Assembly (NCBI GenBank): GCA_964016885.1 | Contig: OZ024762.1 | Coordinates: 22,506,001-22,570,000, forward strand | Direction: 5' to 3' | Origin: Eledone cirrhosa | Lineage: Eukaryota | DNA length: 64,000 bases | Part shown: positions 1,327 to 61,543 of the stretch, one piece after another | Layout of the letters: every line of letters starts with the position of its first letter | Numbering within the stretch: position 1 is the first letter of the stretch | Position numbers and translations under genes: made by a program | The notes under the pieces: model-generated | The model's database searches: none | What the model saw: only the letters and a program-made list of their open reading frames with translations | What the model was told of the DNA's origin: nothing

Positions 1327-1522
1327 GCAAAAGTTTTTACAAAGGCAGCCTCCTAATTTAATGGTCGCTTATATTATGGTACGTCAAAATTATTTATAAA
1401 ACTGTTTATATATTGTATTTTATCTGACGAAGGCATGCCATATTTTTAATATGGTATCCCTGAAATATGTATAATGAAATAAATATGGTTTTATAATTAT
1501 AGTTTCCATTTGTTTAATATCG
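1327..1522 (+). mobile_element. Family B1 hammerhead-bearing element, single arm, in (TA)n
   Basis: Homologous to 45854-46099, 48157-48624 and 55277-55544; TA runs on both sides. Confidence 0.85.
1410..1486 (+). ncRNA. Minimal type-I hammerhead ribozyme (B1)
   Basis: atattgtattttat CTGACGA aggcatgccatatt-ttt-aatatggtatccct GAAA tatgta TA atgaaataaatat; stems I and II pair. Confidence 0.85.
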
Positions 1523-1566
1523 TATATATATATATATATATATATATTTTTATATATATATATATA

Positions 1567-1783
1567 GGAACGAGTAGGACCCCGACGGCTGAGCTCAAGC
1601 CGTTTCGACGGCTAATTCTGGACTAAAAAAAAAAAAAAAAAAATAGTCCAGAATTAGCCGTCGAAACGGCTTGAGTTCAGCCGTCGGGGTCCTACTCGGT
1701 CCTATTACCCACTCTACTACCCTAAGTATTGAGTACTTTGGTGCGTTATGGTCCACCTGGTTCCTTACCACATTCCCTTCGTT
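1567..1783 (+). mobile_element. Family A foldback element (hairpin with poly-A loop plus ~80-bp tail)
   Basis: Arms 1567-1624 and 1645-1702 are inverted repeats; five copies in the window, all in (TA)n. Confidence 0.9.
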
Positions 1784-2493
1784 ATATATATATATATATA
1801 TATATATATATATATATATATATATATATATATATATATATATATATATATATATATATATATAAATATATATATACATATATTCATATGCATTTTCTGA
1901 ATGCACCTAAATATATACTTATGTGTCTGGTGTATGTGTTTGTATATGCATATCTATACACACACACACACACACACACACACACACACACACACACACA
2001 CACACACATATATCCATGTATACACACACAGACACACACACAGATACATATATCACACACACACATATACATATATATATATATATATGTATATGAATAT
2101 TTATATATTATATCTATATACATATATATCAATTATATTTGGTAAAAGCAAACAAGATAAAGAAACATTTACGTATTTACTTAGAAATTCCCAACTGCAG
2201 TGTCGTTTATTATTATTATATATATATATATATATATATATATATATATATATATATATATATATATATATATATATATATATTGTTATATTTGGGGAGG
2301 GTCATATTTGCGTAATATTGCCAGAATTAATAACAGAACACACTCACTGTTTGGTTGGTTTTCGCTTCTCGCTGTCTTTTATATATATATATCTGCGATC
2401 TAACTTACTCGGTCCTCAATGTTGCCATTGACTGACCGGCGGTCAAAAATAATACAGATACAATATAGACAAACACATATATATATATAGTTT

Positions 2494-2533
2494 ACATAAA
2501 TCTTTCGTTGCACATCTGCAACATCGTCAGTGG
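2494..2533 (-). ncRNA. Minimal hammerhead ribozyme (H), ~270 nt downstream of the GIY-YIG stop
   Basis: Minus strand: cca CTGACGA t gttgca-gatg-tgcaac GAAA gatt TA tg; perfect 6-bp stem II, short stem I. Confidence 0.75.
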
Positions 2534-57386: not shown

Positions 57387-57569
57387 AATTTTTCTTTTTC
57401 CGACAGCAAATTATATTGTTTATTAAACATTTCAAAATGGCTGTCAACGACGTTGTCGTAGATTGTGCGACATTTTCTTAATTTAATGAATACAACAAAC
57501 ACTTAGGTTTGAAAGCTGTAATATTATACCACTATTATTTCTATTGTCATACTAGCTTTTGTTCGTCTT

Positions 57570-59250
57570 CTCGTCGTGGTCGTTGTGGTGACGTTGTTGT
57601 TGCGGGCGCTGTTGTTGTGGTGACGTTGTTGTTGCGGGCGCTGTTGTTGTTGCAGGCGTTGTCGTTGTGGTGACGTTGTTGTTGCGGGCGTTGTCGTTGT
57701 TGCGGTCGTTGTTGTTGCGGTCGTTGTTGTTGCGGGCGTTGTCCTTGTTGCGGTCGTTGTTGTTGCGGGCGTTGTCGTTGTTGCGGTCGTTGTTGTTGCG
57801 GGCGTTGTCGTTGTTGCGGGCGTTGACGTTCTTGCGGTCGTTGTTGTTGCGGGCGTTGTTGTCGTTGTTGCAGGTGTTGTCGTTGTGGCGGTCGTTGTTG
57901 TTGCGGTCGTTGTTGTTGCGGTCGTTGTTGTTGCGGGCGTTGTCGTTGTTGCAGGCGTTGTCGTTATTGCGGGCGTTGTCGTTGTTGCGGGCGTTGTCGT
58001 CATTGGCGTTGACATTCTTGCGGTCGTTGTTGTTGCGGGCGTTTTCGTTGTTGCGAGCGTTGTCGTTGTTGCGGGCGTTTTCGTTGTTGCAAGCGTTGTG
58101 GTTGTTGCGGGCGTTCTCGTTGTTGCGGGCGTTGTCGTCGTTGGCGTTGACGTTCTTGCGGTCGTTGTCGACGTTGTCGTTGGGTCGTTGTCGTTGTTGA
58201 CGTTGTTGTCGTTGATGTGTTTGTGGACGTCGTTGGCGTTGAACGTCGTTGCTGTCGTTGTCCTCGTCGGCGTTGACGTCGTTGTGGTAGTCGTTTGCGT
58301 TGATGTCGTTGTGATCGTAGTAGTTGTTGTTGACGTTGTTGTTGTTGTGGTCGTTGTTGTTGTTGTTGTTATTGTGGTCGTTGAAGTCGTTGCGTTGTGG
58401 TCGTTTTTCTTGTTGTAGTTGACGACGACGTTGTTGTTGTTGTGGTTGTTGACGTTGCTGTGATGGTTGCGGTCGTTAACGTCGTTGTGTTGTGGTCGTT
58501 TTTCTTGTTGTAGTTGACGACGACGTTGTTATTGTTGTCGTTGTTGTTATCTTCGTTGTCGTTGACGTTGTTGTTGTCATCGTCTTGGTTGCTGTTATGG
58601 TTATCGTCGTCGTCGTTGTCACCTTGTTGTTGTAGTTGTTGTCACTGTTGTCGTTGTTGTGTGCACAGGATGGCCAACGACGACAACGCCCGCAACAACG
58701 ACAACGCCCGCAACAACAACAACGCTCGCAACAACGACAACGCTCGCAACAACGACAACGCTCGCAACAACGACAACGACCGCAACAACGACAACGCTCG
58801 CAACAACGACAACGCTTGCAACAACGACAACGACCACAACAACAACAACGACCGCAACAACGACAACGACCGCAAGAACAACGCCCGCAACAACGACAAC
58901 GACCGCAACGACGACAACGCTCGCAACAACGACAACGCCCGCAACAAAGACAACGCCCGCAACAACGACAACGCCCGCAACAACAACGACCGCAACAACG
59001 ACAACGCGCGCAACAACGACAACGACCGCAACAACGACAACGCTCGCAACAACGACAACGACCGCACAACGACAACGCTCGCAACGACGACAACGCCCGC
59101 AACAACAACGACCGCAACAACTACAACGCCCGCAACAACGACAACGACCGCAACGACGACAACGCTCGCAACAACGACAACGACCGCAACGACGACAACG
59201 CCCGCAACGACGACAACGCCCGCAACAACGACAACGCCCGCAACAACAAT
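57570..59250. repeat. Two inverted arrays of a 15/18-bp GTT/GCG-rich repeat
   Basis: Left unit gttgtcgttgttgcgggc; right unit gcccgcaacaacgacaac (its reverse complement). Confidence 0.9.
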
Positions 59251-60630
59251 ATTAATATTTTAAATATTTCTCTGCACACAAGCTTCTATATCATACATAT
59301 AAAATACTATACAACCCCCATAATACTCTTGATTGCCCGCTTAAAGTGCTTATATTCCATATAACAGCTTACCGCACTATAATCTTATATAAATAAGACA
59401 CAGGTGCATGCCCCACGTGTAACTAACTACTTCTAACTATCCTCCTGCATCACCTTCATAAACTGCCAATGTTGTATTATAACTTCAATTTTGTTGTAAT
59501 TTTCTTTTAATATGACTTTAATCTTTAAATGTAAACTGCCATGTTTAAATATTATAATGGATGTCAACCCACTGTGCATCAATATATACATATGTTTCTG
59601 TATGTCTCTTGTGTTGAAAAGGAGGTCAAGTATGTAAACAATCATTGAAAAATTGGTTCGAAGACTCCAAACCTCGGTTTGGAAGAAACAATTGTAAGCG
59701 AATAAATGATTTGAACAGAACTTTGATTCATGTAATTTCTATATAAATATATATATATATGTATATATATATATATAAAATTAAATATATGTATATATAT
59801 ATAATTAAATATATGTATACGTATATATGTATATATATATATAATTAAATATATTTATATATATATTTATATATATATATATGTATATATATATATAAAA
59901 TTAAATATATATATATATATATATGTATATATATATATAAAATTAAATATATGTATATATATATATATATATATATACATATGTATATATATATATGTAT
60001 ATATATATATATATATATGTATATATATATATATATATATATATATATATATATATATATATATATATATATATATATTTATATATATGTATATATATAT
60101 ATATAGAATGAAATATATGTATATAATTAAATATATATATATATAGTTTATAATTAAATATATGTATATATTTATATATATATATAAATATCAATAATTG
60201 AATATATATATGTATATATATATATATATATATATATATATATATATATATATATATATATATATATATATATAAATATATAAATATATATATAAATATA
60301 TATATATATACACACATACATATATACATACCTACCTAGATACATACATACATACCTATATACATACATATGTGTGAGGGAGTTTTAGTCTAATTAATAC
60401 TGCTACTAACTGCATCATGCCAATTATAATTTTCATGTTTCAACTAACGTCATTTTTAAACAGTAAAAAATAGTCTGTCTGTTGAAACTTAGTTTCAATC
60501 GTGACTAAATAAACGGAAATAATTACTGTTTAATCATTTGTATATTCTTGTCTTTAAAATAAGTGGCTCTACTATATGTACACACCCACACACATATATA
60601 TATATATATATATATATATATATATATATA

Positions 60631-61543
60631 TGAAAGACGTAAAATAAGAAAATTATAAAAATTAACTTACTAAAATTTCACTCCAACTAATTAGTTTCTG
60701 AAAGGGAATAAACATAGTTTCCGAAGAAACGTACGGAGAAGCCTTTCGTCATCAGAGAAGTCTATTCTCAGCTAAGTTTCCAGGCGATGCGTGGACACAG
60801 GGAACTTATACAAAAATAATTCAGTGGATGGAAAAAAGCAAAGCGTGGACTAAGTTCCAAGATATTGAAAAAATCACTGCCTACAGCGTCGGTGGCAAAT
60901 TCAAAAGAATCAATCACGTGACATCGAGGTTAATCAGTGAGGAGTGGTTTGTTAAGAAGACAGCAGCCGAACCATTACTATGAAATATAGTAGCAGTTTT
61001 GGCCAATTTTGGCTCAACAAAATAATTTGGAGATAATTATAAAGAATTAGTATATCTACTAACATATATATACAGATGCATACTTATGCCAGCAAATATA
61101 TAGGTTTTGTCTTAGTAACTTTGTGGTTCAATGCAAGGGGATGCAGAACAATACTATGAAAGACGTCGACGCAATAGGCAGTGATTTGTTCAATGTCTTG
61201 GAACTTAGTCCACGCTTTGCTTTTTTCCATCCACTGAATTATTTTTGTATAAGTTCCCTGTGTCCACGCATCGCTTGGAAACTTAGCTGAGAATAGACTT
61301 CCCTGATGACGAAAGGCTTCTCCGTATGTTTCTTCGGAAACTATGTTTATTCCCTTTCAGAAACTAATTAGTTGGAGTGAAATTTTAGTAAGTTAATTTT
61401 TATAATTTTCTTATTTTACGTCTTTCATATTATTGTTCTGCATCCCCATGCATTGAACCACAAAGTTACTAAGACAAAACCTATATATTTGCTGGCATAA
61501 GTATGCACCTGTATATATATGTTAGTAGATATACTAATTCTTA
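60631..61543. mobile_element. Family I element: inverted, circularly permuted 526-bp unit joined to a forward arm plus tail
   Basis: 60631-60891 inverted versus 61167-61427; 61042-61166 inverted versus 61417-61543; tgaaagacgt at 60631 and 61157. Confidence 0.9.
61290..61352 (+). ncRNA. Atypical hammerhead candidate (I); mirror on - at ~60705-60768
   Basis: CTGATGA cgaa...ttcg GAAA ctatg TT tattc; stem I (gaata/tattc) is offset by 7 nt. Confidence 0.4.

What the first reader, a model, noticed from the sequence alone, without database searches (positions are those of the whole stretch)
1327..61543. A dense community of non-coding, hammerhead-bearing foldback elements living in (TA)n microsatellites
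Seen: about 28 motifs of the form stem I-CUGANGA (or variant)-stem II-GAAA-short stem III-UH-stem I' in about 11 sequence families. Most sit in 150-900-bp islands bounded by (TA)n, and most have no ORF. Established: Penelope-like elements (PLEs) carry minimal hammerheads in their pseudo-LTRs (Cervera and de la Pena 2014; Lunse et al. 2017). Inference: these are non-autonomous or truncated PLE derivatives that target TA tracts, at roughly one ribozyme motif per 2-3 kb. The PLE-hammerhead link is known. The density, family diversity and shared foldback architecture in this lineage may be undescribed.
Basis: partly seen in the sequence, partly recalled or inferred. Interest (0 to 1): 0.92.

Follow-up and report, generated by a model that had tools for sequence, protein, structure and literature searches.

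The report
Penelope retrotransposon stubs carrying hammerhead ribozymes
These short islands in TA repeats are the end pieces of known Penelope-like jumping genes, most carrying a predicted self-cutting RNA motif; the kind is known, but this animal genome holds at least 54,000 of them, built so regularly that they offer a test of how these elements insert.

Summary
Observation confirmed. A type-I hammerhead descriptor finds 18 motifs against 0 in 12 shuffles. Ten variant or mutated family members bring the count to 28, and 8 half-motifs lie besides. Stems covary across subfamilies. For five families (A-E), longer copies run into RT/GIY-YIG ORFs of Penelope-like elements (PLEs) with Hydra-type or Neptune-type linkers. 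So the islands are PLE pseudo-LTRs, not MITEs. Hammerheads in pseudo-LTRs, inverted pairs, (TA)n targets and the U3-A8 core are all published. Not found in print: (i) scale: 53,924 exact matches for one superfamily alone, roughly 1.7-3 x 10^5 in total; (ii) short copies start at a sharp family-specific 5' edge, as if copied from short promoter-started RNAs; (iii) 105 of 115 head-to-head pairs join one long-tailed and one short arm; (iv) only 4,306 of 56,449 family-D matches keep the ribozyme's 5' core, so cleavage looks dispensable for these copies. The window is about 3-7 times denser than the genome average. Cleavage and expression are untested.

The parts
1327..1522 (+). Family A2 pseudo-LTR island; hammerhead core to cleavage site 1424-1473
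1564..1782 (.). Family D foldback, short left arm and long-tailed right arm; only the 3' half of the hammerhead
2284..3323 (-). 3' fragment of a Neptune-type PLE (family E2): GIY-YIG-like frame 2805-3323 (no Pfam hit; CX4CxxC linker), 3' UTR, hammerhead core at 2530, ORF start codon near 2305
3310..3618 (.). Family B: inverted long tail 3310-3426 joined to sense arm 3442-3618; hammerhead 3510-3564 (+)
3890..3964 (-). Family I piece, core at 3949, stem I 5' strand missing
5461..5530 (+). Degenerate E2-like hammerhead (core at 5472, A9 changed)
9348..9543 (.). Family D foldback, long left arm and short right arm, half hammerheads
9628..9801 (+). Family A3 island; hammerhead 9700-9749
9886..10391 (.). 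Family C foldback (Neptune-type parent L113); U3-A8 hammerheads at 10252-10289 (+) and 10033-10070 (-)
18070..18242 (+). Family A4 island; hammerhead 18139-18188
18258..18377 (+). E2-like island; hammerhead 18336-18369 with an extra base after A9
18656..19142 (+). Island with an E2 tail piece, a 90-bp palindrome 18809-18898 and the family H hammerhead 18952-18982
19338..20202 (+). Family L: about 1.27 head-to-tail units of a 681-nt non-coding monomer; hammerhead 19835-19904; 5343 first-look candidates in the genome
20228..20419 (.). Family D foldback, half hammerheads
20442..20529 (+). Family G tail only, no hammerhead
40638..40773 (.). Diverged family D: inverted tail plus half hammerhead at 40735
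41011..41262 (.). Family K foldback; variant core CAGAAGA (U4 replaced by A) at 41080 (-), degenerate copy at 41107 (+)
42166..42298 (-). Family G 3' piece
42335..42766 (.). Family G2 foldback; UUGAAAA core with GCAA in place of GAAA in both arms (cores 42571 +, 42490 -)
43249..43535 (.). Family J foldback with GAAA-palindrome-UC; 5' core unclear, no other copy among held loci; membership uncertain
44132..45480 (-). 5'-truncated, frameshifted PLE ORF (RVT_1 E 1.8e-10, GIY-YIG E 1.2e-5); no hammerhead found at its own 3' end
45505..45826 (+). Family E solo pseudo-LTR with long tail: AAAATGGCG motif at the 5' edge, hammerhead 45573-45607, ATG and first codons of the ORF; at least 46 matches at 100% identity over 105 or more bases
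45854..46101 (.). Family A2: inverted tail 45860-45920 plus sense arm; hammerhead 46002-46050 (+)
47985..48127 (.). Family D: inverted long tail plus half hammerhead at 48082
48153..48624 (.). Family A foldback (Hydra-type parent L202); hammerheads 48433-48482 (+) and 48211-48260 (-); short left arm, long right arm
52291..52456 (+). Family I copy, core at 52332, cut at stem I
54907..55250 (.). Family G foldback; U3-A8 hammerheads 55077-55106 (+) and 54988-55017 (-)
55268..55544 (.). Family A2 island with inverted tail; hammerhead at 55446 with G12 changed
55563..55998 (.). Family B foldback whose two arms belong to different subfamilies (14 of 14 differences are alleles common elsewhere); hammerheads 55616-55670 (-) and 55810-55864 (+, GACA)
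60628..61541 (.). Family F: inverted arrangement of a ~530-nt head-to-tail non-coding unit; hammerheads 61303-61373 (+) and 60685-60755 (-)

Best explanation
The islands are pseudo-LTRs (pLTRs) of endonuclease-bearing Penelope-like retrotransposons, from several Hydra-type and Neptune-type families, inserted into (TA)n. SHOWN: sequence continuity with RT/GIY-YIG ORFs, TA context, two alternative 3' ends per family, a sharp 5' edge in several families, and the pairing of one long with one short arm. INFERRED (about 0.55): a promoter inside the pLTR starts a short RNA at the 5' edge, and this RNA runs through the hammerhead and the element's first exon. The element's RT-endonuclease, acting in trans and probably as a dimer, nicks both strands of a TA tract. 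Each 3'-OH primes reverse transcription at one of two internal sites 55-110 nt apart, and both cDNAs run back towards the RNA's 5' end, where they are joined end to end. The product is a head-to-head foldback with hammerheads facing outward and one tailed arm. A single priming event gives a solo copy. The two arms usually come from one RNA or one source locus, now and then from two. The hammerhead is a passenger in these short copies; it most likely processes read-through or tandem precursors of full-length elements, as a dimer or with protein help (from the literature, not tested here). Families F and L amplify as head-to-tail units and may pass through ribozyme-cut monomers or circles, like non-LTR retrozymes.
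For: Parents: D in L109 (inverted D ends flank an RT-endonuclease ORF), B in L105, L108 and L110, C in L113; A in L202; E in L127 and L129. Linkers: CxCX5C in A, B, D and CX4CxxC in C, E. The D-parent protein scores 0.95-0.98 against Atlas clusters in which part of the members carry RVT_1, GIY-YIG or HTH_animal and aligns to the Pfam-positive C parent at E 1e-5. 5' edge among copies not chosen by the query: D 40 of 68 within 13 nt and only 3 upstream of the core; B 10 of 16, 1 upstream. Family E copies start at one motif whether solo or paired (18 loci read). In short-read contigs, 14 of the 15 listed joints have one side at 55729-55741, the B edge (50 more joints not shown). Head-to-head junctions: 133 of 134 join the same family or group, and 133 of 134 have no TA tract between the arms. 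Long plus short arm: 105 of 115 classifiable pairs, 54 of 61 among bystanders. Arms share rare alleles in L003, L020, L058, L071, L079 and others. D: 56,449 3'-half matches, 4,306 with the 5' core. An Anolis PLE protein nicks and extends both strands, starts at two internal sites, is predicted to dimerise and does not need ribozyme cleavage in vitro (PMC11167929). Penelope has an internal promoter (PMC2377424).
Against: No RNA data: the start site, expression and cleavage are not shown. The 5' edge is clear for D, B and E but weaker for A (5 of 25 bystanders at -81 to -86, with diverged subfamilies mixed in) and untested for C, G, H, I, K. Loci came from best-scoring hits, so young copies are over-represented. 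Stalling of RT at RNA structure could also make an edge, and D's edge lies inside stem II. Shared rare alleles between arms fit snap-back synthesis or later gene conversion equally well. The two mixed-subfamily foldbacks (window 55563-55998 and L087; 2 of 17 B pairs, L078 partly) could come from later recombination. 10 of 115 pairs break the long/short rule (5 of them in tandem family F). No parent ORF was traced for G, G2, H, I, J, K or L. The Hydra-type ORFs give no Pfam hit (4 of 4). Clade labels rest on linker motifs, not on a tree.
Confidence: 0.75

Rival explanations
1. The short copies are ordinary 5' truncations of full-length PLE RNAs, and the edge marks a place where reverse transcriptase stalls on RNA structure (hammerhead stem II or the pLTR border). 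No short RNA and no non-autonomous amplification is needed.
For: Heavy 5' truncation is typical of PLEs (PMC8557442). D's edge lies in the long stem II. Downstream of each edge the 5' ends tail off as truncations do. Some copies do run into the ORF.
Against: The edges of B, A and E lie 58-86 nt upstream of the hammerhead, not in it. Very few bystander copies end just upstream of the edge (D 3 of 68, B 1 of 16). In E the edge sits at a motif shared between subfamilies. The window's C copy shares its non-element 5' filler with locus L035 on another contig, which suggests a short copy served as template.
Confidence: 0.3
2. Foldbacks arise by self-priming or snap-back: one cDNA (or an antisense RNA, as proposed for rotifer Penelopes) folds back and copies itself, and the second arm ends at a TA-like microhomology.
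For: Arms are usually near-identical and share rare alleles. Junctions often carry short templated repeats. The model is proposed in PMC3846280.
Against: In many pairs each arm holds sequence the other lacks: the short-tailed arm reaches up to about 150 nt further 5' (L029, L089, L090, L104). That needs later asymmetric deletion under snap-back. Two B foldbacks have arms of different subfamilies yet keep the long/short build; one junction joins families D and A directly (L013).
Confidence: 0.25
3. All these families are non-LTR retrozymes that are cut by their ribozymes into monomers or circles and reinserted by a PLE enzyme.
For: Family F has a tail-to-unit junction in 17 of 20 loci and three tandem hammerheads 530 nt apart in L166. 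Family L has a 681-nt period. Retrozymes are reported to derive from PLE pLTRs (bioRxiv 10.64898/2026.07.22.740005).
Against: A, B, D and E show no tandem unit in the loci read, and their 5' edges are not at the cleavage site. Most D copies lack half of the ribozyme. Plausible for F and L only (about 0.5 for those two).
Confidence: 0.1
4. The foldbacks are MITEs of a TA-targeting DNA transposon, and the motifs are incidental.
For: Short, non-coding, inverted arms in a TA context.
Against: Arms are unequal by a fixed tail, junctions vary, the same sequence continues into RT/GIY-YIG ORFs, and the catalytic core is invariant while stems covary.
Confidence: 0.02
5. Chance motifs in AT-rich DNA, or palindromes made by long-read assembly errors.
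For: Foldback chimeras are a known long-read artefact (recalled). Single-motif folding z-scores are weak.
Against: 18 hits against 0 in shuffles; 53,924 pattern matches against 0 for the reversed pattern; arms differ in sequence and length; joints at the B edge occur in short-read contigs of runs X1 and X3 (one sample, possibly the assembly's own).
Confidence: 0.01

Closest known systems
Minimal hammerheads in pLTRs of metazoan PLEs (Cervera and de la Pena 2014, PMC4209133)
   Same: Type-I topology, palindromic or minimal stem III, an unpaired base at the start of stem II, the U3-A8 core variant, mostly solo motifs, and opposite-strand pairs 100-700 bp apart.
   Different: Counts reported there: about 2,000 plus 1,300 (S. 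mansoni), 4,000 (coelacanth), 9,000 (X. tropicalis). Here one superfamily alone gives 53,924 exact matches in 3.0 Gb (descriptors differ). Some families here have a full stem III (D, I, K) or other core changes (U4 to A in K; GCAA in G2).
Hydra clade of PLEs (Craig et al. 2021, PMC8557442)
   Same: C-terminal endonuclease, CxCX5C linker (A, B, D parents), CxxC and CxH motifs at the endonuclease end, hammerhead present, insertion into (TA)n.
   Different: Described as a small set of mostly cnidarian families; here the clade-like families reach tens of thousands of short copies each. No tree was built; the DKT and RWK motifs were not confirmed.
Neptune clade and the Anolis Poseidon element PAc (Frangieh et al. 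2024, PMC11167929; Arkhipova et al. 2013, PMC3846280)
   Same: CX4CxxC linker (C, E parents), inverted pLTRs, a tail on one of two inverted pLTRs, two internal RT start sites, ORF start inside the pLTR (family E), AT-rich targets.
   Different: Tails here are 55-110 nt rather than 30-40. The tail is described as optional; here long and short pair almost one to one (105 of 115). Most inserts are pLTR-only.
Non-LTR retrozymes (Cervera and de la Pena 2020, PMC7229834; Li et al. 2026, bioRxiv 10.64898/2026.07.22.740005)
   Same: Non-coding head-to-tail units with one type-I hammerhead each, linked to PLE pLTRs (families F and L).
   Different: Units of about 530 and 681 nt exceed the 150-450 bp given there; F inserts as inverted pairs in (TA)n; circular RNA is not shown. 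Most other families here are not tandem.

Membership tests
Type-I hammerhead ribozyme (minimal PLE form) | Core CUGANGA...GAAA...UH in a three-way junction, above chance | tested here: met
   18 hits vs 0 in 12 shuffles; 39 hits vs 0, 0, 1 in 390 kb
Type-I hammerhead ribozyme (minimal PLE form) | Covariation of stems with an invariant core | tested here: met
   21 chosen A/B sequences: core invariant; 10 of 18 pairs change on both sides, all 7 of stem II; 0 of 500 shuffles reach the score; slid controls 0.08-0.20 vs 0.40. Sequences are related and were picked by the descriptor.
Type-I hammerhead ribozyme (minimal PLE form) | Site-specific self-cleavage | not testable with these tools
   No cleavage data; related minimal motifs cleave weakly, as dimers or with protein
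Type-I hammerhead ribozyme (minimal PLE form) | Complete core in family D short copies | tested here: not met
   All 8 window pieces lack the 5' core; 4,306 of 56,449 genome matches keep it, some with an unpairable C3-A8
Rfam hammerhead families | Covariance-model match | tested here: inconclusive
   None among the 150 of 372 rows shown; microsatellite hits crowd the list
EN+ Penelope-like element | RT plus C-terminal GIY-YIG ORF contiguous with the repeat on the same strand | tested here: met
   B, C, D, E parents; A thumb plus endonuclease; F RT only. Not traced for G, G2, H, I, J, K, L.
EN+ Penelope-like element | Direct or inverted pLTRs with an optional 3' tail | tested here: met
   Two-peaked 3' ends in 7 of 7 families tested; inverted ends flank ORFs in L105, L109, L110, L202
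EN+ Penelope-like element | RT phylogeny within PLEs | not tested
   No reference PLE proteins were fetched; no tree built
Hydra clade | CxCX5C linker; CxxC and CxH around the endonuclease end; (TA)n target | tested here: met
   Linker in L109, L110, L202; CxH in L109 and L202; CxxC read in the ORFs
Hydra clade | DKT and RWK motifs | tested here: inconclusive
   No DKT match in the D and B parent stretches scanned, which are degenerate or truncated; RWK not searched
Neptune clade | CX2-5CxxC linker before GIY-YIG | tested here: met
   L113, L127 and window 2805-3323; the motif does not by itself separate Neptune from Nematis
Non-LTR retrozyme | Head-to-tail non-coding units, one hammerhead each | tested here: inconclusive
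   Met for F (17 of 20 loci with the junction) and suggested for L; not seen for A, B, D, E
Non-LTR retrozyme | Abundant circular RNA | not testable with these tools
   No RNA run listed
MITE (DNA transposon) | Equal terminal inverted repeats, fixed internal sequence, matching transposase | tested here: not met
   Unequal arms, variable junctions, RT parents

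The most novel reading that the evidence does not exclude
This genome holds on the order of 2 x 10^5 hammerhead motifs, more per megabase than any figure in the papers I read. They were spread mainly by solo pseudo-LTRs that behave as a promoter-started, SINE-like non-autonomous class of PLE. Each foldback records one double-priming event by a dimeric enzyme, one subunit at each of two start sites, sometimes on two different RNAs. 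This would explain PLE inverted insertions without self-priming, and family D would be a natural knock-out showing the ribozyme is not needed to move. Families K (U4 to A) and G2 (U3-A8 with GCAA) might be undescribed working core variants.
Probability: 0.4. Interest if true: 0.65.

Novelty: new member of a known kind. Interest (0 to 1): 0.45.

Why it matters
How PLEs form their tandem and inverted insertions, and what their hammerhead is for, are named as open questions in PMC8557442 and PMC11167929. This genome offers tens of thousands of young insertions per family with a regular build, so the double-priming and self-priming models can be told apart by counting. Family D shows that copies without a complete ribozyme dominate. 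At least 54,000 motifs, and roughly 3% of sampled DNA in the pieces mapped, also matter for repeat annotation and as a source of long hairpin RNA if read through (speculative). The parts list itself is known biology.

Tried and rejected
Rfam scan: swamped by microsatellite hits, no hammerhead among the rows shown. Inverted-repeat tool on the whole window: only TA runs shown; replaced by a masked self-BLAST. Fixed MITE-like junction: rejected, junctions differ between copies. Purely random truncation, my first reading: weakened by the 5'-edge counts. General two-family chimeras: only 1 of 134 junctions is cross-family, so two-RNA priming is at most a minority route. Two family-E matches 2.5 kb apart, taken for a full-length element: two separate foldbacks around a TA-rich tract (L201). 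A-to-I editing imprint: no consistent excess of A>G over T>C on the sense strand in 7 families (higher in E and D, lower in A, B, F, G, about equal in K). Folding energy of single motifs: not informative (the L024 stretch folded there missed the core and was not used). No RNA holder listed for family E; this says nothing on expression. Run X5 laid nothing on the B foldback, and no contig spans the whole foldback; neither is evidence of absence. PDB search with the D-parent protein: nothing below E 0.45. Simple extrapolation of density (39 per 390 kb; bootstrap 1.8-4.4 x 10^5) runs high: the sample held 12 A/B matches against 7.0 expected, and rescaling gives about 1.75 x 10^5. Rows dropped before counts: loci overlapping the window, duplicated loci and the 12 large re-fetches (11-12 plus 9-18 ids, listed in the scripts); 4 pairs with an unclassifiable end. 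Lunse et al. 2017 was not held, so the K and G2 variants may be described there. Supplements of the cited papers were not read and may list cephalopod or larger counts.

Full report
Setting. The window is G000:C23:22506001-22570000 of a 3.0-Gb animal assembly. About 10% of it is pure (TA)n, twice the mean of 39 spaced 10-kb stretches. The repeat landscape reminds me of a coleoid cephalopod; this is recalled and was not tested. Family letters (A to L) are my own labels.

1. Observation. A type-I hammerhead descriptor found 18 motifs against 0 in each of 12 block-wise dinucleotide shuffles, and 19 against 0-1 with one core mismatch. Four of the 18 have the U3-A8 core. Ten more family members with a changed core or a lost stem I bring the total to 28. 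Eight family-D pieces carry only the 3' half. 17 of 18 strict hits have a TA tract within 200 nt downstream, against 37% of random positions. In 21 aligned A/B-type motifs the catalytic core is invariant and 10 of 18 pairs, including all 7 of stem II, change on both sides; no shuffle of 500 reached the covariation score. These sequences are related and were picked by the descriptor, so this supports the fold but does not prove activity. Rfam showed no hammerhead family among the 150 of 372 rows listed.

2. What the islands are. I searched the genome with six family queries that returned loci and read the flanks. Longer copies run, on the hammerhead's strand, into retrotransposon ORFs: D in L109, B in L105, L108 and L110, C in L113, A in L202, E in L127 and L129. 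One F copy is an RT frame joined to the F unit by an apparent internal deletion (L172). The C parent matches Pfam RVT_1 and GIY-YIG; the four A, B and D frames tested match nothing in Pfam. The D frame, however, aligns to the C parent (E 1e-5), has a YRDD motif, and falls among RT/GIY-YIG-bearing Atlas clusters at 0.95-0.98. A, B and D carry the CxCX5C linker that Craig et al. give for the Hydra clade, which inserts into (TA)n and has hammerheads (PMC8557442; section read). C and E carry CX4CxxC, Neptune type. In family E the tail encodes the start of the ORF, as in the Anolis element. No parent was traced for G, G2, H, I, J, K or L.

3. Anatomy. (a) The 3' ends fall in two peaks 55-110 nt apart in all 7 families tested. 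(b) Head-to-head pairs join one long and one short arm in 105 of 115 classifiable cases, and in 54 of 61 not chosen by the query; 5 of the 8 long-long cases are in tandem family F; 4 pairs could not be classed. (c) 133 of 134 junctions join the same family or group, and 133 of 134 have no TA tract between the arms, so a pair is one event, not two neighbours. (d) Junction sequences vary between copies, so no fixed palindromic unit is being copied. (e) The 5' ends pile up at a family edge. Among copies met in other families' flanks, 40 of 68 D ends lie at +40 to +52 from the core and only 3 upstream of it; 10 of 16 B ends lie at -77 to -65. A is weaker (5 of 25 at -81 to -86, though 18 of 29 query-chosen copies). 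E copies start at an AAAATGGCG motif, which resembles a YY1 site (recalled). Short-read contigs show many joints pinned to the B edge (14 of 15 listed). (f) Arms usually share rare alleles, but the window's B foldback (14 of 14 differences are alleles common elsewhere) and L087 (10 of 11) combine two subfamilies. (g) F is a ~530-nt head-to-tail unit (junction in 17 of 20 loci), and the island at 19338-20202 has a 681-nt period.

4. Scale. One exact pattern for the A/B superfamily matches 53,924 places; the reversed control matches none. The 3' half of D matches 56,449 places, and only 4,306 of the longer pattern with the 5' core. The longer pattern misses mutated copies, so the intact share may be nearer 12% than 8%. 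Some of these have C3 with A8, which cannot pair. The general descriptor finds 39 motifs in 390 kb (shuffles 0, 0, 1). That extrapolates to 3.0 x 10^5 (bootstrap 1.8-4.4 x 10^5), or about 1.75 x 10^5 after rescaling to the direct count. The window is 2.8 times the sample mean and 7 times the genome rate for A/B. Published counts that I saw: about 2,000 plus 1,300 in S. mansoni, 4,000 in coelacanth, 9,000 in X. tropicalis (PMC4209133, section read); over 6,000 in a coral and up to 120,000 retrozyme copies in axolotl (PMC7229834, passages). Descriptors differ, so the comparison is rough.

5. Mechanism. The best reading is given above: short RNAs from the pLTR's internal promoter, mobilised in trans, primed on both strands of a TA tract at two internal sites, with the cDNAs joined at their far ends. 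Support from outside: the Anolis PLE protein nicks and extends both strands at AT-rich DNA, starts at two internal sites that define the tail, is predicted to be a dimer, and inserts equally well with dead ribozymes (PMC11167929, main text read); Penelope has an internal promoter (PMC2377424, passages). The rival, self-priming, was proposed for rotifer elements (PMC3846280, passages). It explains identical arms but needs extra steps for pairs in which each arm has sequence the other lacks, and for mixed-subfamily pairs. RT stalling remains a fair alternative for the 5' edge. Everything about RNA here is inferred; no RNA run was available.

6. Known and new. Known: hammerheads in pLTRs, their wide scatter as solo motifs, opposite-strand pairs and U3-A8 (PMC4209133); inverted pLTRs with a tail on one arm; (TA)n bias; retrozymes as pLTR derivatives (bioRxiv 10.64898/2026.07.22.740005, first fifth read). 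Not found in nine searches: a hammerhead census in a cephalopod, the near one-to-one long/short rule, or solo-pLTR amplification from a fixed edge. A 2026 octopus repeat annotation lists 31 recently active PLE families and does not use the word ribozyme (PMC13282606, passages). The library lacks most subscription papers; Lunse et al. 2017 was not held (recalled only), and no supplements were read. Term look-ups in Perreault et al. 2011 found no U4A entry (PMC3088659, passages). An earlier agent reported a similar population in another genome; that is an unchecked lead, not support.

Verdict. It is a very abundant new instance of a known system, with a few regularities that bear on an open mechanistic question. 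Interest 0.45.

Noticed in passing
window 41011-41262; 23 arms in held loci: Family K has a hammerhead-like fold with CAGAAGA in place of CUGAAGA (A at position 4 in 20 of 23 arms), a full stem III and a U-U mismatch opening stem II. Either an untested core variant or a dead ribozyme that kept spreading.
   Followed up: partly
window 42335-42766; L081, L151: Family G2 combines the U3-A8 core with GCAA in place of GAAA in 4 of 4 arms seen.
   Followed up: partly
L023, L030, L146, L189 and part of the list: A D subfamily with C3 facing A8 (unpairable) has itself amplified.
   Followed up: partly
window 43540-45480 (-): The RT/GIY-YIG remnant has no hammerhead hit in its own 3' region. Related 3' ends recur (window 1-47, flank of L048). 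It may carry another RNA motif or none.
   Followed up: no
window 9886-10391 and L035: The window's family C foldback shares its non-element 5' filler with a copy on another contig, suggesting re-mobilisation of a short copy or a duplication.
   Followed up: no
L013: A family D arm is joined head to head to a family A arm with no TA between them.
   Followed up: partly
window 5660-6060, 11830-12240, 16400-16821, 30579-30973, 41895-42090 and others: Many copies of a ~200-bp SINE-like repeat with a tRNA-like head, often in tandem pairs, ending in (ATT)n.
   Followed up: no
window 8137-9041, 14387-15396, 21805-23201, 28661-30442, 38836-40227: Young tandem arrays of 131, 39, 123, 52 and 77 bp at 92-99% matches; the 123-bp array keeps an open frame of 406 codons, probably by chance of its unit length.
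   Followed up: no
window 12270-13150 (+), 31009-32457 (-), 62070-63200 (+): Fragments of non-LTR retrotransposons; zf-RVT hit for the first, the others judged by eye from their translations.
   Followed up: no
L105, L107-L110, L116, L158: PLE families nest in each other's TA flanks, for example a B element beside an A copy in L105 and beside a D copy in L110. Motif count per 10 kb rises with TA content (rho 0.49, p 0.002, 39 stretches).
   Followed up: partly
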